A DNA stretch of 47,087 nt, taken from the IMG/VR virus record IMGVR_UViG_2718218131_000001, one strand, 5' to 3'. The position numbers were made by a program, and so were the translations under genes. Origin of the DNA: a virus. Its lineage: Duplodnaviria; Heunggongvirae; Uroviricota; Caudoviricetes. Positions 7,478 through 35,471 of this stretch are shown in pieces (position 1 is the first letter of the stretch; every line of letters begins with the position of its first letter). Below the pieces are notes generated by a model. The model saw only the letters and a list, made by a program, of their open reading frames with translations. It did not search any database and was not told the origin of the DNA.

Positions 7478-8259
7478 GCAGCCACCTTCTGTTCAGAGGC
7501 TTTCTGTTTCAGGAATCCAAGAGCTTTCACTGCTTCGGCCTGTGTCAGTTCTGACGATGCGCGAATGTCGCGGCGAAATATCTGGGAACAGAGCGGCAAT
7601 AAGTCGTCATCCCATGTTTTGTCCAGGGCAATCAGCAGAGTGTTAATCTCCTGCATGGTTTCATCGTTAACCGGAGTGATGTCGCGTTCCGGCTGACGTT
7701 CTGCAGTGTATGCGGTATTTTCGACAATGCGCTCGGCTTCATCCTTGTCATAGATACCAGCAAATCCGAAGGCCAGACGGGCACACTGAATCATGGCTTT
7801 ATGCCGTAACATCCGTTTGGGATGCGACTGCCACGGTCCGGTGATTTCTCTGCCTTCGCGGGTTTTGAATGGTTCGCGGCGGCATTCATCCATCCATTCG
7901 GTAACGCAGATCGGATGATTACGGTCTTTGCGGTAAATCCGGCATGTACAGGATTCATTGTCCTGCTCAAAGTCCATGCCATCAAACTGCTGGTTTTCAT
8001 TGATGATGCGGGACCAGCCATCAACGCCCACCACCGGAACGATGCCGTTCTGCTTGTCAGGGAAGGCGTAAATTTCTTTCGTCCACGGATTAAGGCCGTA
8101 CTGGTTGGCGACGATCAGCAATGCGATGAACTGCGCATCGCTGGCATCACCTTTAAATGCCGTCTGGCGAAGAGTGGTGATCAGTTCCTGTGGGTCGACA
8201 GAATCCATGCCGACACGTTCAGCCAGCTTCCCTGCCAGCGTTGCGAGTGCTGTACTCAT
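7474..8259 (-). CDS. bet: Single-strand annealing protein Bet (Red-beta)
   Basis: 261-aa [40 protein letters not shown]... matches lambda Bet. Confidence 0.95.
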
Positions 8260-8264
8260 CCGTT

Positions 8265-8681
8265 TTATACCTCTGAATCAATATCAACCTGATGGTGAGC
8301 AATGGTTTCAACCATGTACCGGATGTGTTCTGCCATGCGCTCCTGAAACTCAACATCGTCATCAAACGCACGGGTAATGGCTTTTTTGCTGGCCCCGTGG
8401 CGTTGCAAATGATCGATGCATAGCGATTCAAACAGGTGCTGGGGCAGGCCTTTTTCCATGTCGTCTGCCAGTTCTGCCTCTTTCTCTTCACGGGCGATCT
8501 GCTGGTAGTGACGCGTCCAGCTCTGAGCCTCAAGACGATCCTGAATGTAATAAGCGTTCATGGCTGAACTCCTGAAATAGCTGTGAAAATATCGCCCGCG
8601 AAATGCCGGGCTGATTAGGAAAACAGGGAAGGGGGTTAGTGAATGCTTTTGCTTGATCTCAGTTTCAGTATTAATATCCAT
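8265..8681 (-). CDS. gam: RecBCD inhibitor Gam
   Basis: 138-aa [39 protein letters not shown]... matches lambda Gam. Confidence 0.95.
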
Positions 8682-8779
8682 TTTTTATAAGCGTCGACGG
8701 CCTCACGAAACATCTTTTCATCGCCAATAAAAGTGGCGATAGTGAATTTAGTCTGGATAGCCATAAGTGTTTGATCCAT
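8636..8779 (-). CDS. kil: Host-killing protein Kil
   Basis: C-terminal 47 codons of track ORF 8636..8905 ([47 protein letters not shown]) match lambda Kil. Confidence 0.8.
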
Positions 8780-8912
8780 TTTTTGGGACTCCTGGCTGAT
8801 TAAGTATGTCGATAAGGCGTTTCCATCCGTCACGTAATTTACGGGTGATTCGTTCAAGTAAAGATTCGGAAGGGCAGCCAGCAACAGGCCACCCTGCAAT
8901 GGCATATTGCAT
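8748..8912 (-). CDS. cIII: Protease inhibitor CIII
   Basis: 54-codon ORF below the track cutoff, overlapping kil in another frame; reads [54 protein letters not shown]; coordinates set from the track-supported frame. Confidence 0.55.
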   Translation of the reverse strand: MQYAIAGWPVAGCPSESLLERITRKLRDGWKRLIDILNQPGVPKNGSNTYGYPD

Positions 8913-8984
8913 GGTGTGCTCCTTATTTATACATAACGAAAAACGCCTCGAGTGAAGCGTTATTGGTATGCGGTAACGCAGCGC

Positions 8985-9353
8985 TCAGGCGGCTTTGATA
9001 GTCATATCATCTGAATCAAATATTCCTGATGTATCGATATCGGTAATTCTTATTCCTTCGCTACCATCCATTGGAGGCCATCCTTCCTGACCATTTCCAT
9101 CATTCCAGTCGAACTCACACACAACACCATATGCATTTAAGTCGCTTGAAATTGCTATAAGCAGAGCATGTTGCGCCAGCATGATTAATACAGCATTTAA
9201 TACAGAGCCGTGTTTATTGAGTCGGTATTCAGAGTCTGACCAGAAATTATTAATCTGGTGAAGTTTTTCCTCTGTCATTACGTCATGGTCGATTTCAATT
9301 TCTATTGATGCTTTCCAGTCGTAATCAATGATGTATTTTTTGATGTTTGACAT
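8985..9353 (-). CDS. ea10: Lambda Ea10-like protein
   Basis: 122-aa ORF MSNIKKYIIDYDWKASIEIEIDHDVMTEEKLHQINNFW... matches lambda Ea10; GAGGA RBS. Confidence 0.85.
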   Translation of the reverse strand: MSNIKKYIIDYDWKASIEIEIDHDVMTEEKLHQINNFWSDSEYRLNKHGSVLNAVLIMLAQHALLIAISSDLNAYGVVCEFDWNDGNGQEGWPPMDGSEGIRITDIDTSGIFDSDDMTIKAA

Positions 9354-9371
9354 CTATTCATATCCTCATAG

Positions 9372-9401
9372 ATAAAAAATTGCCCTCACATCGGAGGGCA
9401 A
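9372..9401 (-). terminator. Rho-independent terminator (leftward)
   Basis: Hairpin TTGCCCTC-(6 nt)-GAGGGCAA followed by T6 on the minus strand, just upstream of ea10. Confidence 0.5.
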
Positions 9402-9516
9402 AGAAGATTTCCAATAATCAGAACAAGTCGGCTCCTGTTTAATTATGAGCGACATTTCTCCGTGTATTCACTCGTTGGAATGAATGCACAGTGCAGTGTT
9501 TATTCTGTTGTTTATG

Positions 9517-9544
9517 CCAAAAATAAAGGCCGACTATGCGGCCT
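9517..9544 (-). terminator. Rho-independent terminator (leftward)
   Basis: Hairpin AGGCCG-(6 nt)-CGGCCT followed by TTTATTTTT on the minus strand, just after the 149-aa membrane protein gene. Confidence 0.5.
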
Positions 9545-9548
9545 AAAA

Positions 9549-9998
9549 TTACTTAACCAATGATGCTGCATATTCGATAAGGTAAAGCTTTGGGGCCAGC
9601 CAAATTTTTAACCAAGTCATATTGGTTACTACAGCAATAATAAAACTTACCCACAGAACAAAAACTGCAGCTAATGGTAAGATTAGAAAACTAATCTCAC
9701 CGTTACTTTCCCAAATCATAGTCGGTTTGTATTTAGTCTTCCCCTTATCCCATGACCATCCTTCATCATCGAACTTACCAATTTCAACTTTTTGGCACTG
9801 TTTCTTCATAAACCAGAAAACCAGCGGGATTGTTAAAATGGCTATTAATGTTTTAATCAGACTGTCAACCATATTCCATAGCAGTAACTGATGAACAACA
9901 TCAGGAATCTGTGCCTGGCTAAATGAGACAGCCGCGTCTATTCCATTACTGGCTTTTTGCAATAGTTCTATGAGAATCTTATTTGCCTGTTCTTCCAT
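9549..9998 (-). CDS. Membrane protein in the ral/sieB slot (candidate superinfection-exclusion protein)
   Basis: 149-aa ORF with two hydrophobic segments (LIKTLIAILTIPLVFWFM and ISFLILPLAAVFVLWVSFIIAVV); AT-rich; sits between ea10 and N. Confidence 0.55.
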   Translation of the reverse strand: MEEQANKILIELLQKASNGIDAAVSFSQAQIPDVVHQLLLWNMVDSLIKTLIAILTIPLVFWFMKKQCQKVEIGKFDDEGWSWDKGKTKYKPTMIWESNGEISFLILPLAAVFVLWVSFIIAVVTNMTWLKIWLAPKLYLIEYAASLVK

Positions 9999-10056
9999 AT
10001 ATCACCTCAAATAAGTGGTTTGCTGCCTAATTTCATTTTCTGGCGAACAGTGCAGG

Positions 10057-10329
10057 TTACCTCGCTGTCAGTTGTTTTGATTTCCGGTAGCCTGCCGCGT
10101 AAAGAGCTACGTTCGGAAGACAAGTTGAACCTTCATATTTTCTGGTCAACGTTGTCAGAGTTATAACTTCTGCTCTCATTGCTGGTTTGCGCTTGCATTG
10201 CAAGACCACTCGTGAAGGGGTTGGCCTGTGTAGCTTGTCGGAGCTAATCGCCTCCTGACTTTGCAGGTTTGCGCGACGAGCTCTACGGCGAGAAGCTGCG
10301 GTGCCTTTAAATTCTGTTTTTCTGGACAT
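10057..10329 (-). CDS. N: N-type transcription antiterminator (P22 gp24-like)
   Basis: Track ORF 10057..10401; start at internal ATG 10329 with GGGAGG RBS; arginine-rich N-terminus GTAASRRRARRANLQ; C-terminus LPNVALYAAGYRKSKQLTAR resembles P22 gp24. Confidence 0.75.
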   Translation of the reverse strand: MSRKTEFKGTAASRRRARRANLQSQEAISSDKLHRPTPSRVVLQCKRKPAMRAEVITLTTLTRKYEGSTCLPNVALYAAGYRKSKQLTAR

Positions 10330-10427
10330 AGATTCCTCCCGAATAAACTTTGGCGATGCAATCTCGAAGCTCCTCCTGAGACGGTTACTTCGGCATTGCA
10401 TCCCACAGCTTATGTGGTTGGGTGATC

Positions 10428-10473
10428 TGGCTTTTCAGCCACGTAGTCGAGTGTTCGACGTTGTTTAAAGAGC
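10428..10473 (-). promoter_or_regulatory. nutL-like site (boxA GGCTCTTTAA, boxB GGCTGAAAAGCC)
   Basis: On the leftward transcript between pL and N: boxA-like element then a short hairpin with GAAAA-type loop; the boxB loop matches the nutR candidate. Confidence 0.4.
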
Positions 10474-10519
10474 CTGCCAGTCTGCTCCGTTTGGCTTACA
10501 GCGTCCTGCTGATGAGTTG

Positions 10520-10566
10520 ACTTTATCGAAATGATAAACTGATGGCAATAGCAAAATGATAAATTG
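10520..10566 (-). promoter_or_regulatory. pL/oL: leftward early promoter with repressor operators
   Basis: Minus strand TTGCCA-17 nt-TAAAGT; two copies of the AAATGATAAA operator motif that also recurs in oR. Confidence 0.5.
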
Positions 10567-10744
10567 TTTGGGTTTTCAAATATCCTGTTGATTATTATGG
10601 TTTTTTATTTGATTGCGGGAATTTATCAGAAGGAATGAAGAGACTTGAGGGGGATCAGAATTTCGTGGTTTAGAAAGTTGTATCTATCAATTTTTCAATA
10701 AATACAATTGGTTAAGGTGTTATTAGGTGTGGGGATCGTGAGGC

Positions 10745-10770
10745 AAAGAAAACCCGGCGCTGAGGCCGGG
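10745..10770 (-). terminator. tImm-like rho-independent terminator
   Basis: Hairpin CCCGGC-(6 nt)-GCCGGG followed by TTTTCTTT on the minus strand; surrounding ~100 bp recalled as the lambda sequence just downstream of rexB. Confidence 0.6.
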
Positions 10771-10791
10771 TTCTGTCATCTAACTTAAGTA

Positions 10792-10920
10792 TCAAGCCGC
10801 TTTTTGTGAATGATTGATGTGAGCTTCAAAGTCGCGGCGTAGATTTTGAACGCGCTCTACACATCCGCGCATTTCAGCCAAAAGCTTACTAACGGCAGTA
10901 TAGTCAAACGCTTTAGTCAT
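10792..10920 (-). CDS. Small hypothetical protein (42 aa), second gene of the rex-slot cassette
   Basis: ATG at 10920 preceded by GAGGGG then an A-run; MTKAFDYTAVSKLLAEMRGCVERVQNLRRDFEAHINHSQKAA; stop 3 bp before the tImm hairpin region; below the track length cutoff. Confidence 0.45.
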   Translation of the reverse strand: MTKAFDYTAVSKLLAEMRGCVERVQNLRRDFEAHINHSQKAA

Positions 10921-10935
10921 TTTTTTTCCCCTCGT

Positions 10936-11298
10936 TTAAATGTAAGGCTCAACATCAAGGGCTGCTATTGCTGCGCACAATGCGTCAGGATCGTCAGCAT
11001 CGATGGCTTGAGCCAGGTCATTAGCCAGTATAAGTAACTTATCGATGACAGCGATTTCGCTGGTCTTATCTACACGAAAGTATGGGAGCAGAGCATTACA
11101 TACGTCTCTGAATGTCCGTAATTCTGCGACAACGTTCGAAAAGGTAGGATCTTTCTTACGAAGATCCACCAATGGCGCTACTTTAGCTGTTTTCAGCATT
11201 GCACTAATCTCGCCAATCATTGTTCCATGCAGACGATTAAATTCATCAACAGCTCGGTCATGCAAGCTCTTGTTGATTGGCAATACGTTTTGGGTCAC
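10936..11298 (-). CDS. Hypothetical protein (120 aa), first gene of the rex-slot cassette
   Basis: GTG start with consensus AAGGAG 8 nt upstream; predicted soluble, no recognised motifs; AT-rich. Confidence 0.6.
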   Translation of the reverse strand: MTQNVLPINKSLHDRAVDEFNRLHGTMIGEISAMLKTAKVAPLVDLRKKDPTFSNVVAELRTFRDVCNALLPYFRVDKTSEIAVIDKLLILANDLAQAIDADDPDALCAAIAALDVEPYI

Positions 11299-11566
11299 TA
11301 ACTATACTCCTTATATAGGTGTTCGCCAACAGATTTTCAATATGACTTGGGCGATTTCTGAACAATAAGCACGATTTAGCAATGATTAATTGATGTTAAG
11401 CACAAATATCTCTACATCGTGCATTTTTAACTATTTATACACATAAAATCTAATAAATGGATATAAACCTTATGATGATTTTTCTCAATCGAATTGAATA
11501 ATGATCTCTATCACATCACCCAAACGTCTCTTCAGGCCACTGGTTACCAGCTATGTGACGATGAAG

Positions 11567-12271
11567 TCACGAACTTTTCAGCCACTCCCTTGCCTCGATG
11601 TCATCCAGATGGCGAGATTGCTTCAGAATACCAGCCACATACTCCACCTTTGCTACTTGATGATAAGGCAACGTTATTGGCCTGTGGTCCTGGTTGATGC
11701 TTGTAAATTGGTATTCTCCATCTCTGTCATAGCCAAGAACTTTGATCATGTTGTGTCCTTCAACAGTTCTGACAAACACCTCATCCCCCGGGAATACTTT
11801 GGTGTTAGGCTCAATGAGTACATATTCTCCTGATTTTATTCTGGGCCACATGCTGTCTCCTTTCACACGAAGACCAAAGGCATCTGGATCATCGCTATAA
11901 ATATTGAGCCACCCATCGCGCTCTTCGGTCATCTCGATGGCACCATCAACACCAAGAATTGCCTCACCAACCACGCGCACTAACCCTTTTCTTACCTGAC
12001 CGACAAAAGTTAAAGAATCTGAGCATGATGCAATTGGTGTTACATCATGTACCAAATCAAGCCACCCATTAGGTAACCCAAGTGCGGCTTCGAATTTTCT
12101 TGCTAGTTTATCCCCTATGTTTCGAGTGCTTTTTTCACCGGAGACTTGCGTGAGTTGAGAAGGGCTAACTCCAAGCTTATCGGCAAAGCTTGCATTAGTG
12201 TTACCCGCGATTTTTTTATGCTCATCTAGCAAAAACGCCAGATTCGATTTGCGAATATCTTTGTTTTCCAT
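11567..12271 (-). CDS. cI: CI-type prophage repressor (HTH + S24 LexA-like peptidase domain)
   Basis: 234-aa ORF; N-terminal HTH (FADKLGVSPSQLTQV), C-terminal autocleavage domain with GDSM serine and downstream lysine; divergent from lambda CI. Confidence 0.85.
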   Translation of the reverse strand: MENKDIRKSNLAFLLDEHKKIAGNTNASFADKLGVSPSQLTQVSGEKSTRNIGDKLARKFEAALGLPNGWLDLVHDVTPIASCSDSLTFVGQVRKGLVRVVGEAILGVDGAIEMTEERDGWLNIYSDDPDAFGLRVKGDSMWPRIKSGEYVLIEPNTKVFPGDEVFVRTVEGHNMIKVLGYDRDGEYQFTSINQDHRPITLPYHQVAKVEYVAGILKQSRHLDDIEAREWLKSS

Positions 12272-12293: not shown

Positions 12294-12356
12294 GCAAATG
12301 GATAAATATGCATTTTGATAAATCTTCATTGCGTTTTATTTATCAAAATGGTAAAG
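12294..12356. promoter_or_regulatory. oR operator cluster with pR
   Basis: Three AAATG(G)ATAAA-type sites including the inverted pair CATTTTGATAAA / TTTATCAAAATG; plus-strand TTGCGT-17 nt-TAAAGT facing cro. Confidence 0.5.
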
Positions 12357-32489: not shown

Positions 32490-32929
32490 ATTTTGCCCTC
32501 AGACTGGCGCGAGAGATGGGGAGGCCTGACTGGCGCGCCATGCTTGCCGGGATGACATCCACCGAATATGCCGACTGGCGACATTTTTACCGCACGCATT
32601 ATTTTCAGGATACCCAACTGGATATGCATTTTTCCGGGCTGATGTACGCTGTACTCAGCCTGTTTTTTTGCGATCCGGATATGCATCCCTCTGATTTCAG
32701 TCTGCTTGTCCCCCGGCATGAGGAAGAGCAGGTGGAGAGGCTGGATGAGGACAAAATGCTGATGCAGAAAGCGGCAGGACTTGCCGGAGGCGTCCGGTTC
32801 GGTGGGGACGGAGGGGGCGATATTTTATCGTCTGCGGATGTGGCGGATGTCATGGTGGATGATGCCGCATTAATGATGGCTTCAGCGGGGATTCCAGGAG
32901 GTGTGAGATATGTCCCAGCCGGTTGGTGA
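32471..32929 (+). CDS. T: T segment of the gpGT frameshift fusion tail assembly chaperone
   Basis: Open -1 frame from the slippery site to 32929 (track ORF 32516..32929); no independent start expected. Confidence 0.75.
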   Translation, partial: VFDGELNFALRLAREMGRPDWRAMLAGMTSTEYADWRHFYRTHYFQDTQLDMHFSGLMYAVLSLFFCDPDMHPSDFSLLVPRHEEEQVERLDEDKMLMQKAAGLAGGVRFGGDGGGDILSSADVADVMVDDAALMMASAGIPGGVRYVPAGW

Positions 32930-35471
32930 TCTTATTATTGACCTGAGTCTGGATGCGGTCCGTTTCGATGAGCAGATGAGCCGGGTAAGGCGTCATTTTT
33001 CAGGACTGGATACTGACGCCAGAAAAACCGCCACTGCTGTTGAACAGGGCCTGAGCCGTCAGGCGCTGGCTGCGCAAAAAGCCGGGATTTCCGTCGGACA
33101 GTATAAAGCGGCCATGCGAACCCTGCCCGCACAGTTTACGGATATCGCCACGCAGCTTGCCGGTGGTCAGAATCCCTGGCTGATCCTGCTGCAACAGGGC
33201 GGTCAGGTGAAGGACTCCTTCGGCGGGATGATCCCCATGCTCAGGGGGCTTGCCGGTGCGATCACCCTGCCGATGGTCGGGGTCACCTCGCTGGCGGTGG
33301 CGACAGGTGCGCTGGCGTACGCCTGGTACCAGGGGGATTCCACGCTTTCAGCGTTTAATAAAACCCTGGTTCTTTCCGGTAATCAGTCCGGACTGACTGC
33401 CGATCGCATGTTGACGCTCTCCAGAGCCGGACAGGCCGCAGGGCTGACGTTTAACCAGGCGAGTGAGTCACTGGCAGCCCTGGTGAATGCCGGTGTGCGT
33501 GGTGGTGAACAGTTTGATGCCATCAACCAGAGTGTCGCGCGTTTTGCTTCTGCATCCGGTGTGGAGGTGGACAAGGTTGCAGAGGCTTTCGGAAAACTGA
33601 CCACCGACCCTACGTCGGGGCTGATTGCGATGGCGCGCCAGTTCCGTAACGTGACGGCAGAGCAGATTGCGTATGTTGCTCAGTTGCAGCGTTCCGGCGA
33701 TGAAGCCGGGGCATTGCAGGCGGCGAACGAGGCCGCAACGAAAGGGTTTGATGACCAGACCCGCCGCCTGAAAGAGAACATGGGCACGCTGGAGACCTGG
33801 GCAGACAGGACAGCACGGGCATTCAAATCCATGTGGGATGCGGTGCTGGATATTGGTCGTCCTGATACCGCGCAGGAGATGCTGATTAAGGCAGAGGCTG
33901 CGTTTAAGAAAGCAGACGACATCTGGAATCTGCGCAAGGATGATTATTTTGTTAACGATGAAGCGCGGGCGCGTTACTGGGATGATCGTGAAAAGGCCCG
34001 TCTTGCGCTTGAAGCCGCCCGAAAGAAGGCTGAGCAGCAGACTCAACAGGACAAAAATGCGCAGCAGCAGAGCGATACCGAAGCGTCACGGCTGAAATAT
34101 ACCGAAGAGGCGCAGAAGGCTTACGAACGGCTGCAGACGCCGCTGGAGAAATATACCGCCCGTCAGGAAGAACTGAACAAGGCACTGAAAGACGGGAAAA
34201 TCCTGCAGGCGGATTACAACACGCTGATGGCGGCGGCGAAAAAGGATTATGAAGCGACGCTGAAAAAGCCGAAACAGTCCGGCGTGAAGGTGTCTGCGGG
34301 CGATCGTCAGGAAGACAGTGCTCATGCTGCCCTGCTGACGCTTCAGGCAGAACTCCGGACGCTGGAGAAGCATGCCGGAGCAAATGAGAAAATCAGCCAG
34401 CAGCGCCGGGATTTGTGGAAGGCGGAGAGTCAGTTCGCGGTACTGGAGGAGGCGGCGCAACGTCGCCAGCTGTCTGCACAGGAGAAATCCCTGCTGGCGC
34501 ATAAAGATGAGACGCTGGAGTACAAACGCCAGCTGGCTGCACTTGGCGACAAGGTTACGTATCAGGAGCGCCTGAACGCGCTGGCGCAGCAGGCGGATAA
34601 ATTCGCACAGCAGCAACGGGCAAAACGGGCCGCCATTGATGCGAAAAGCCGGGGGCTGACTGACCGGCAGGCAGAACGGGAAGCCACGGAACAGCGCCTG
34701 AAGGAACAGTATGGCGATAATCCGCTGGCGCTGAATAACGTCATGTCAGAGCAGAAAAAGACCTGGGCGGCTGAAGACCAGCTTCGCGGGAACTGGATGG
34801 CAGGCCTGAAGTCCGGCTGGAGTGAGTGGGAAGAGAGCGCCACGGACAGTATGTCGCAGGTAAAAAGTGCAGCCACGCAGACCTTTGATGGTATTGCACA
34901 GAATATGGCGGCGATGCTGACCGGCAGTGAGCAGAACTGGCGCAGCTTCACCCGTTCCGTGCTGTCCATGATGACAGAAATTCTGCTTAAGCAGGCAATG
35001 GTGGGGATTGTCGGGAGTATCGGCAGCGCCATTGGCGGGGCTGTTGGTGGCGGCGCATCCGCGTCAGGCGGTACAGCCATTCAGGCCGCTGCGGCGAAAT
35101 TCCATTTTGCAACCGGAGGATTTACGGGAACCGGCGGCAAATATGAGCCAGCGGGGATTGTTCACCGTGGTGAGTTTGTCTTCACGAAGGAGGCAACCAG
35201 CCGGATTGGCGTGGGGAATCTTTACCGGCTGATGCGCGGCTATGCCACCGGCGGTTATGTCGGTACACCGGGCAGCATGGCAGACAGCCGGTCGCAGGCG
35301 TCCGGGACGTTTGAGCAGAATAACCATGTGGTGATTAACAACGACGGCACGAACGGGCAGATAGGTCCGGCTGCTCTGAAGGCGGTGTATGACATGGCCC
35401 GCAAGGGTGCCCGTGATGAAATTCAGACACAGATGCGTGATGGTGGCCTGTTCTCCGGAGGTGGACGATGA
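32910..35471 (+). CDS. H: Tail tape measure protein H
   Basis: 853-aa ORF, same length as lambda gpH, coiled-coil-rich with Gly-rich C-terminus. Confidence 0.95.
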   Translation: MSQPVGDLIIDLSLDAVRFDEQMSRVRRHFSGLDTDARKTATAVEQGLSRQALAAQKAGISVGQYKAAMRTLPAQFTDIATQLAGGQNPWLILLQQGGQVKDSFGGMIPMLRGLAGAITLPMVGVTSLAVATGALAYAWYQGDSTLSAFNKTLVLSGNQSGLTADRMLTLSRAGQAAGLTFNQASESLAALVNAGVRGGEQFDAINQSVARFASASGVEVDKVAEAFGKLTTDPTSGLIAMARQFRNVTAEQIAYVAQLQRSGDEAGALQAANEAATKGFDDQTRRLKENMGTLETWADRTARAFKSMWDAVLDIGRPDTAQEMLIKAEAAFKKADDIWNLRKDDYFVNDEARARYWDDREKARLALEAARKKAEQQTQQDKNAQQQSDTEASRLKYTEEAQKAYERLQTPLEKYTARQEELNKALKDGKILQADYNTLMAAAKKDYEATLKKPKQSGVKVSAGDRQEDSAHAALLTLQAELRTLEKHAGANEKISQQRRDLWKAESQFAVLEEAAQRRQLSAQEKSLLAHKDETLEYKRQLAALGDKVTYQERLNALAQQADKFAQQQRAKRAAIDAKSRGLTDRQAEREATEQRLKEQYGDNPLALNNVMSEQKKTWAAEDQLRGNWMAGLKSGWSEWEESATDSMSQVKSAATQTFDGIAQNMAAMLTGSEQNWRSFTRSVLSMMTEILLKQAMVGIVGSIGSAIGGAVGGGASASGGTAIQAAAAKFHFATGGFTGTGGKYEPAGIVHRGEFVFTKEATSRIGVGNLYRLMRGYATGGYVGTPGSMADSRSQASGTFEQNNHVVINNDGTNGQIGPAALKAVYDMARKGARDEIQTQMRDGGLFSGGGR

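What the first reader, a model, noticed from the sequence alone, without database searches (positions are those of the whole stretch)
9549..9998. Unrelated 149-aa membrane protein in the ral/sieB slot between ea10 and N
Lambda-like sequence runs through ea10 and its upstream hairpin, then similarity stops and an AT-rich gene for a two-TM-helix protein follows, ending at a terminator hairpin (9517..9544) and lying just downstream of N on the pL transcript. In lambda this slot holds ral and sieB; SieB-type exclusion proteins are small inner-membrane proteins. This protein does not resemble lambda SieB as I recall it, so it may be a distinct exclusion or abortive-infection determinant.
Basis: partly seen in the sequence, partly recalled or inferred. 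Interest (0 to 1): 0.55.

Follow-up and report, generated by a model that had tools for sequence, protein, structure and literature searches.

The report
Uncharacterised early phage membrane protein
The gene is real and encodes a small two-pass membrane protein made at the very start of phage growth, but it belongs to a large, widespread phage family of unknown function, unrelated to lambda's SieB exclusion protein and often found alongside it.

Summary
Observation confirmed. ORF 9549..9998 (-) is a real 149-aa gene (SD GAGG, dN/dS 0.245). It has two TM helices and is AT-rich (37% vs 52% GC). It lies 58 nt after N with no terminator in between, and a hairpin terminator follows at 9544..9527. 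Identity to lambda (98%) stops at 9537, the position of lambda's ral stop.

Interpretation mostly not supported. The protein shows no similarity to lambda or P22 SieB or to P22 SieA (hhalign probability <=0.2%). It has no Pfam, NCBIfam or PADLOC hit and no esc-like internal start. It lies on the pL strand, whereas sieB is convergent with its own promoter. In related prophages it sits beside ral (23 of 80 loci) and sieB (9 of 80), so it does not replace them.

It belongs to PHROG 3054, function unknown. That family has 2441 clusters and includes Sf6 gp34, phi92 gp220 and N4-like and Vibrio phage genes. Members have near-invariant N- and C-terminal helices flanking an interchangeable TM hairpin.

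Best guess (about 0.3): an early membrane factor acting during lytic growth, perhaps an Imm-like block to further DNA entry. Function remains untested. Moderate interest.

The parts
9549..9998 (-). Gene for the 149-aa two-pass membrane protein (PHROG 3054 family), stop codon included
   Evidence: ORF. phrog_3054 E=4e-61. dN/dS 0.245. AF2 pLDDT 90.2.
9867..9998 (-). Codons 1-44: conserved N-terminal amphipathic helix that runs into TM1 (motif F26..P32-D-V..Q37-L-L.W41)
   Evidence: Nearly invariant columns in A1 and A2. dN/dS 0.11. 92% DNA identity to HK633 and CUS-3.
9807..9863 (-). TM helix 1 (residues 46-64)
   Evidence: Hydropathy scan. Part of AF2 helix 2-68.
9684..9806 (-). Variable loop (residues 65-105) with small beta elements. 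Rich in K/R just after TM1 and acidic before TM2.
   Evidence: dN/dS 0.32. Replaced by unrelated loops of 10-60 aa in relatives.
9627..9683 (-). TM helix 2 (residues 106-124)
   Evidence: dN/dS about 1.06.
9552..9623 (-). Codons 126-149: conserved C-terminal helices with invariant A135-P136-K137 and Y143 (WLKIWLAPKLYLIEYAASLVK)
   Evidence: Invariant in 134 diverse members. dN/dS 0.06.
9999..10056 (-). 58-nt N-to-gene junction with SD GAGG (10008..10005). No terminator and no promoter-like site. A short junction sequence that recurs before other pL genes.
   Evidence: The junction matches the lambda orf28/ral start and CUS-3.
9517..9544 (-). First intrinsic-terminator-like hairpin downstream of pL (stem 9544..9527 plus T tract), 4 nt after the stop codon
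9380..9401 (-). Second terminator hairpin. It aligns with the Sf6 terminator annotated as the lambda tL2A homologue.
10057..10329 (-). N antiterminator gene, immediately upstream on the same transcript
   Evidence: Pfam N_peptide E=2.3e-32.
10446..10473 (-). nutL-like site: boxA GCTCTTTAA (10473..10465) and boxB hairpin (10459..10446)
   Evidence: Read from the sequence. Hairpin found.
10520..10548 (-). pL-like promoter (TTGCCA-17-TAAAGT) with TTATC..GATAA operator half-sites, paralogous to the pR region

Best explanation
SHOWN:
- 9549..9998 (-) is a genuine gene for a two-pass inner-membrane protein of a very large, uncharacterised phage accessory family (PHROG 3054; Sf6 gp34 and phi92 gp220 are members).
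- Its constrained part is a module next to the membrane, built from the N-terminal ~45 residues (a long helix continuous with TM1) and the C-terminal ~22 residues (invariant A-P-K...Y).
- The TM hairpin and loop between them are interchangeable cassettes.

INFERRED FROM ANATOMY:
- In this prophage it is the second gene of the pL transcript, and the first terminator comes after it.
- It should therefore be made immediately on infection or induction, without needing N, and should be silent in the repressed prophage.

INFERRED, LOW CONFIDENCE:
- It acts at the inner membrane during lytic growth as a factor in conflict between phages or between phage and host.
- The conserved termini would engage a conserved membrane or periplasmic target.
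- My preferred guess is a block to further phage DNA entry, working like T4 Imm, and not a SieB-type abortive infection.
For: Gene reality and architecture.

Conserved ends, swapped cores:
- The ends are 85-95% identical to the window protein while the cores are 13-34% identical, across at least 7 core types.
- DNA similarity to HK633 and CUS-3 is confined to 9360..9614 and 9875..10007.
- dS is similar at the ends and in the loop, so the constraint acts on the protein.

Immediate-early position:
- pL, nutL, N, a 58-nt gap, the gene, then the first terminator.
- The gene is on the N strand in every locus where N was detected.

Accessory, conflict-type contexts:
- It sits among ral and sieB in the mosaic pL region.
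- It sits in early small-ORF clusters of virulent phi92-like, N4-like, Pseudomonas and Rheinheimera phages.
- It is an opposite-strand insert inside the tail genes of Vibrio phage K366.
- It sits in a small-ORF cluster beside the ejection-protein genes of a P22-like contig.
- No partner gene is conserved.

From my own knowledge: T4 Imm is an early-expressed small two-TM inner-membrane protein that blocks DNA entry, and HK97 gp15 and P22 SieA are membrane proteins encoded next to tail or ejection genes.
Against: - There is no functional test of any member for exclusion.
- A 121-aa relative (SPN9CC AEW47744.1, ends 95% identical) was in the 200-gene accessory screen of Silas et al. (bioRxiv 10.1101/2023.04.06.535777, Suppl. 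File 3). It is not among the genes reported with a phenotype. That screen was not designed to find protective genes.
- The termini are conserved across phages with very different entry machines (sipho-, podo-, myoviruses, N4-like). This fits a host target better than a phage-specific one.
- There is no similarity to Imm, SieA, SieB or any PADLOC model.
- Fold searches give only generic helical hairpins.
- Topology is unresolved. The charge bias slightly favours N-out/C-out with a cytoplasmic loop.
Confidence: 0.3

Rival explanations
1. Host-takeover or counter-defence factor. The conserved terminal module binds a conserved host inner-membrane or periplasmic component. Candidates include FtsH/HflKC, a transporter used as an entry port, the divisome, or a membrane-embedded defence sensor or effector. 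The protein would modulate that target early in infection, with the TM core serving only as an anchor.
For: - The termini are nearly invariant from enterobacterial lambdoids to Vibrio, Pseudomonas and Rheinheimera phages, while TM2 evolves neutrally with dN/dS about 1.
- The position is promoter-proximal in the early operon, next to known host- or defence-directed genes such as ral, gam, kil and cIII.
- In Barba19A it lies beside macro-domain and NAD-salvage genes.
- Many carriers are virulent phages.
Against: - A relative gave no reported host-sensitising (counter-defence) or conditional-lethal phenotype in the ECOR screen.
- No partner or target can be named from sequence.
- The loop is conserved within each core type, which suggests the core is more than an anchor.
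Confidence: 0.28
2. One reading: a SieB-type exclusion or abortive-infection determinant that protects the lysogen, taking the place of sieB.
For: It is a small membrane protein in the N-to-ea10 interval where lambda has ral and sieB. It has no homology to any non-defence family.
Against: - It is on the pL strand with no promoter-like site of its own, whereas sieB is convergent with its own promoter.
- It co-occurs with sieB in 9 of 80 related loci and with ral in 23 of 80.
- hhalign probability is <=0.2% against P22 and lambda SieB.
- There is no esc-like nested start and no PADLOC hit.
- It is common in virulent phages.
Confidence: 0.07
3. Regulator of lysis timing or envelope integrity. It would be antiholin-like or holin-like, or would protect against lysis from without, acting through interactions between membrane helices.
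For: The architecture is a two-TM hairpin with flanking helices. It is found in both temperate and virulent phages.
Against: - It is encoded far from the lysis cassette, which lies at about 20.3-21.3 kb in the window.
- It is in early rather than late transcription units in most contexts.
- It has no Pfam holin hit.
- It was not reported as toxic in the ECOR screen.
Confidence: 0.08
4. Dispensable passenger with a subtle function or none: a mobile membrane-protein cassette kept by linkage to recombinogenic boundary sequences.
For: It is flanked by conserved junction or boundary sequences. Its presence is patchy: the conserved 5' end is in 186 of 5426 complete E. coli genomes. Lambda lacks it.
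Against: Purifying selection on the termini is strong (dN/dS 0.06-0.11) although dS equals that of the loop. The family is conserved across distant phage groups.
Confidence: 0.1

Closest known systems
PHROG 3054 (unknown function); members include Shigella phage Sf6 gp34, CUS-3 ECRS218_0047, E. coli phage phi92 gp220 and Salmonella phage FSL SP-076 SP076_00055
   Same: Full-length profile match, E=4e-61. All 134 diverse relatives hit the same PHROG. Sf6 gp34 is 48% identical with identical termini, and it holds the same pL-operon position before the tL2A-like terminator.
   Different: None in kind. This copy carries the 149-aa 'EG(Y/W)SWD..KPKY..T.IW' loop type, found in 96 of 5426 complete E. 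coli genomes. No member has a tested function.
Lambda / P22 SieB (Pfam PF14163), superinfection exclusion by abortive infection
   Same: A small membrane protein encoded in the N-to-cIII interval of lambdoid phages.
   Different: SieB is on the opposite strand with its own promoter and has a nested esc. There is no sequence or profile similarity. The two co-occur in the same prophages.
T4 Imm (Pfam PF14373), early two-TM inner-membrane protein that blocks DNA entry (function from my own knowledge; Lu & Henning, cited)
   Same: Small, two TM helices, predicted early expression, accessory, and carried by virulent phages too. This is what the protein may work like.
   Different: No Pfam hit for any of 134 members among the families listed. 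The protein is about twice as long and has conserved extramembrane N- and C-terminal helices. Function is untested.
P22 SieA (inner-membrane blocker of DNA entry, prophage-expressed; PMC10883804)
   Same: An inner-membrane accessory protein. One family member lies beside the ejection-protein genes of a P22-like phage, as sieA does in P22.
   Different: hhalign probability 0.19%. SieA has its own promoter and is expressed in the lysogen.
Lambda Ral (restriction alleviation)
   Same: Same accessory stretch of the pL operon. Lambda similarity ends exactly at the ral stop.
   Different: Ral is a 66-aa soluble protein and is unrelated. In 23 of 80 related loci ral lies immediately upstream of this gene.

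Membership tests
PHROG 3054 (uncharacterised phage membrane protein family) | Full-length match to the family profile | tested here: met
   E=4.2e-61 over residues 1-149 against profile positions 1-137 of 137. 134 of 134 diverse relatives also match.
PHROG 3054 (uncharacterised phage membrane protein family) | Architecture: N-terminal helix, TM1, loop, TM2, and a C-terminal helix with the A-P-K...E-Y motif | tested here: met
SieB (PF14163) | Sequence or profile homology to lambda or P22 SieB | tested here: not met
   No Pfam hit at E<=1. hhalign probability 0.21% against P22 SieB and 0.12% against lambda SieB.
SieB (PF14163) | Transcribed from its own promoter, convergent with pL, so that it is expressed in the lysogen | tested here: not met
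   The gene is on the pL/N strand, 58 nt after N, with no promoter-like site. sieB is on the opposite strand in lambda and P22.
SieB (PF14163) | Nested in-frame antagonist (esc) start | tested here: not met
   No internal in-frame start has an SD. Internal Met positions are not conserved.
SieB (PF14163) | Abortive-infection phenotype against superinfecting phage | not testable with these tools
   Needs expression and phage challenge.
T4 Imm-type entry blockers (PF14373) | Homology to Imm_superinfect | tested here: not met
   No Pfam hit for the protein. The family is not among those matched by the 134 members.
T4 Imm-type entry blockers (PF14373) | Small inner-membrane protein with two TM helices, expressed early | tested here: met
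   Two TM helices. Early expression is inferred from the position before the first pL terminator, not measured.
T4 Imm-type entry blockers (PF14373) | Blocks DNA entry of superinfecting phage | not testable with these tools
   Needs DNA-entry assays.
P22 SieA | Homology to SieA | tested here: not met
   hhalign probability 0.19%.
Known anti-phage defence systems (PADLOC-DB 2.0) | Match to any defence-protein model | tested here: not met
   0 families at E<=1.

The most novel reading that the evidence does not exclude
PHROG 3054 would be a previously unrecognised, very widespread class of phage early inner-membrane effector. An invariant helical module next to the membrane, formed by the two termini, would dock onto a conserved envelope target in Gammaproteobacteria. 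Interchangeable TM-hairpin and loop cassettes would tune specificity. The result would be a new, Imm-independent way of closing the cell to further phage DNA entry, or of disarming a membrane-embedded defence, used by lambdoid, P22-like, N4-like and phi92-like phages alike.
Probability: 0.25. Interest if true: 0.65.

Novelty: new variant of a known kind. Interest (0 to 1): 0.35.

Why it matters
If the family has a defined role at the membrane, it would give a function to thousands of 'hypothetical' genes. These occur in temperate and virulent phages of Enterobacteriaceae, Vibrio and Pseudomonas, including therapy-relevant phi92-like and N4-like phages and the model phage Sf6.

The design is unusual for a protein this small. 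The termini are near-identical around unrelated TM cores. That offers a ready-made experiment, swapping cores between variants, to separate anchoring from specificity.

For this prophage the practical message is narrower. The gene is not a SieB substitute. The genes placed for lysogen-expressed exclusion are the two unknown ORFs in the rexAB slot.

Tried and rejected
- Pfam, NCBIfam and PADLOC scans of the protein gave nothing. A Pfam scan of 134 relatives gave only scattered spurious TM hits.
- A profile search of PDB sequences gave only chance GPCR and coiled-coil TM matches, E>=0.27.
- hhalign against P22 SieA, P22 SieB and lambda SieB found no relation.
- I looked for a conserved partner gene. 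The small ORFs immediately upstream in phi92, FSL SP-076, Lyrsu01 and Barba19A are unrelated to each other and to Ral.
- An esc-like nested start is absent.
- An Rfam scan of 8900..11400 found only the cIII thermoregulator.
- Source names for cluster members are only 'hypothetical protein' or 'Phage transmembrane protein'.
- Literature searches for the PHROG id, the C-terminal motif and Sf6 gp34 found nothing on this family.
- orf184 of Silas et al., from the same accessory region as ral, is a different, soluble protein.
- Promoter scans beside the opposite-strand copies in Vibrio phages were uninformative.
- Topology from charge counts is not decisive.

Full report
**1.

- The ORF listing gives an ATG-initiated ORF at 9549..9998 on the - strand, 149 aa. 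GAGG lies 6-9 nt upstream of the start, and no other in-frame start has an SD.
- A hydropathy scan finds two TM segments, residues 46-64 and 106-124.
- The gene is 37.3% GC against 51.6% for the window.
- A hairpin with a T tract lies at 9544..9527, 4 nt after the stop codon. A second lies at 9401..9380.
- The upstream neighbour is N (10057..10329; Pfam N_peptide E=2e-32). The downstream neighbours are ea10/DUF2528 (8985..9353) and cIII.
- Against lambda, window 7949..9537 is 98% identical to lambda 32500..34087, which ends at the ral stop codon. Beyond that only a 34-nt junction at the start of the gene matches.

**2. It is a real, selected gene of a very large family**

- A search of 5.8 billion proteins gave 520 relatives, all named 'hypothetical' and mostly from Escherichia, Salmonella, Shigella, Citrobacter, Cronobacter and Klebsiella.
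- The exact sequence is on 229 contigs. The surrounding 3.7 kb is 100% identical to prophages in chicken E. coli isolates.
- A profile search of 1.84 billion cluster representatives found 2441 clusters at E<=1e-3.
- Nei-Gojobori dN/dS over 53 alleles from 77 prophage copies is 0.245.
- The only family match is PHROG 3054, 'unknown function' (E=4e-61). All 134 diverse relatives fall in the same PHROG.
- Pfam, NCBIfam and PADLOC give nothing.

**3. Anatomy**

- With a 134-sequence alignment AlphaFold gives a confident model (pLDDT 90.2).
  - One long helix spans residues 2-68, so an N-terminal amphipathic helix runs straight into TM1.
  - A loop with small beta elements covers residues 72-102.
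  - TM2 is residues 106-125.
  - Two short C-terminal helices follow, 128-134 and 136-148.
- Conservation is concentrated at the two ends.
  - A135, P136, K137 and Y143 are invariant.
  - L9, F26, P32, V34, Q37, L38, L39, W41, I132, L140, E142, A145 and L147 are nearly invariant.
- dN/dS by region is 0.11 (N-terminus), 0.13 (TM1), 0.32 (loop), 1.06 (TM2) and 0.06 (C-terminus). dS at the ends equals that of the loop, so the constraint is on the protein and not on the DNA.
- Relatives carry termini 85-95% identical to this protein around cores that are unrelated (13-34% identity; core lengths 59, 66, 78, 79, 88, 98, 100 and 103 aa).
- At the DNA level, similarity to HK633 and CUS-3 is confined to 9360..9614 and 9875..10007.
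- In complete E. coli genomes the conserved 5' end occurs in 186 of 5426 genomes. This particular core occurs in 96.
- Topology is unresolved. K/R density is 17% in the loop, 5% in the N-tail and 10% in the C-tail. The 12 residues after TM1 hold 3.0 K/R against 0.6 before it. This leans towards N-out/C-out with a cytoplasmic loop, but short-loop variants have acidic loops, which would also fit N-in/C-in.

**4. Expression logic (inferred)**

- A promoter-like site at 10548..10520 (TTGCCA-17-TAAAGT) shares its hexamers and TTATC..GATAA half-sites with the pR region.
- It is followed by boxA and boxB (10473..10446), then N, a 58-nt spacer with no terminator or promoter-like site, the gene, and then the first - strand terminator.
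- The gene should therefore be part of the N-independent immediate-early transcript. It should be silent while the repressor holds pL.

**5. It is not a SieB substitute**

- In lambda and P22, sieB lies on the opposite strand with its own promoter and a nested esc.
- Profile comparison with P22 SieB, lambda SieB and P22 SieA gives probabilities of 0.1-0.2%.
- Among 80 related prophage loci the gene is always on the N strand. Twenty-three loci have ral immediately upstream, and nine also have a lambda- or P22-type sieB on the opposite strand. Locus L081, for example, reads N, lambda sieB (100%), ral (100%), then this gene.
- Sf6 and CUS-3 show the same order: N, ral, this gene, terminator.
- The gene is thus an independent module that normally lies between ral and the tL2A-like terminator. 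In this window ral and sieB are simply absent, so it abuts N.

**6. Wider distribution**

- tblastn against 50,697 phage records finds 181 carriers. They include virulent phi92-like myoviruses (gp220), N4-like Salmonella, Klebsiella and Vibrio phages, many other Vibrio phages, Pseudomonas phage Lyrsu01 and Rheinheimera phage Barba19A.
- Contexts seen:
  - early or replication-side clusters of small ORFs;
  - an opposite-strand insert within the tail genes of Vibrio phage K366, ending in a bidirectional terminator;
  - a four-gene opposite-strand insert in Vibrio phage 1.036.O;
  - a six-ORF cluster, preceded by a terminator and a promoter-like site, beside the gp26/14/7/20 ejection genes of a P22-like contig.
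- The small upstream ORFs are unrelated to one another, so there is no conserved partner.

**7. Published evidence**

- No paper names the family.
- The 121-aa SPN9CC variant (AEW47744.1, TMHMM 2 TM) was one of the 200 accessory genes screened by Silas et al. (bioRxiv 10.1101/2023.04.06.535777, Suppl. File 3, entry UDP0047).
- It is not among the genes reported as conditionally lethal or host-sensitising.
- The authors note that protective (exclusion) phenotypes were caught only incidentally.
- This is weak evidence against a broad counter-defence role. It says nothing about exclusion.

**8. Mechanism**

- Shown: a two-pass membrane protein whose selected part is the pair of terminal helices beside the membrane. 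The TM hairpin is exchangeable, and the gene is placed for very early expression.
- Inferred: it acts during lytic growth at the inner membrane.
- I favour an Imm-like block to further DNA entry (about 0.3). The reasons are the accessory, moron-like distribution, the neighbourhood of other phage-conflict genes, the proximity to ejection genes in one lineage, and the presence in virulent phages.
- A host-directed or counter-defence role is almost as likely (about 0.28). It fits better with the conservation of the termini across phages that have unrelated entry machines.
- SieB-like abortive infection (0.07), lysis-timing control (0.08) and a near-neutral passenger (0.1) are less likely.

**9. 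Verdict**

- The gene is a catalogued but uncharacterised family member, not a new discovery in itself.
- The family's size, its absence from Pfam, and its conserved-ends, swapped-core design make it a reasonable experimental target. Sf6 gp34 offers a model-phage entry point.
- Interest 0.35.

Noticed in passing
window 10792..11298 (-): ORFs 10936..11298 (120 aa) and 10792..10920 (42 aa): Two unknown ORFs occupy the lambda rexA/rexB slot between the repressor gene (11567..12271) and pL. A promoter-like site lies at 11329..11301, and a lambda-like post-rexB segment lies at 10653..10772. They match PHROGs 13858 and 12503 (unknown function) and have no Pfam, NCBIfam or PADLOC hit. Only one phage record (Proteus phage Pm34) holds a relative of the 120-aa protein. 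Unlike the finding, they are placed for expression in the lysogen, so they are the better candidates for a prophage exclusion or defence function.
   Followed up: partly
window 9990..10049: A 34-60-nt junction carrying the SD and start recurs in front of different pL-operon genes. It appears at lambda 34349..34381 (orf28/ral start) and twice in CUS-3, after N before ral and again before the membrane-protein gene. It looks like a mosaic boundary sequence that lets modules be swapped.
   Followed up: partly
window 9380..9401 and 9527..9544 (-): Two tandem terminator hairpins follow the gene. The distal one aligns with the Sf6 terminator annotated as the lambda tL2A homologue and with Sf6 'boundary sequence' bsq4.
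   Followed up: partly
window 9627..9683 (TM2 codons 106-124): dN/dS is about 1.06 in TM2 against 0.13 in TM1, and dS is lower in both TM segments than elsewhere. TM2 is either neutral filler or under diversifying selection. This is unexplained.
   Followed up: no
L090 5016..6543 (P22-like metagenomic contig): A terminator, a promoter-like site and six small ORFs, the last being a 180-aa family member, are inserted between tail and ejection-protein genes. This is a moron-like cluster.
   Followed up: partly
window 10520..10548 and about 12320..12350: pL and pR of this prophage share -35 TTGC(C/G) and -10 TAAAGT, with TTATC..GATAA operator half-sites. The repressor is a 234-aa LexA-family protein.
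   Followed up: no
window 8900..8925 (-): Rfam Lambda_thermo (the cIII thermoregulator RNA) matches at the 5' end of cIII. The match is cut by my search range, so the score is below gathering.
   Followed up: no
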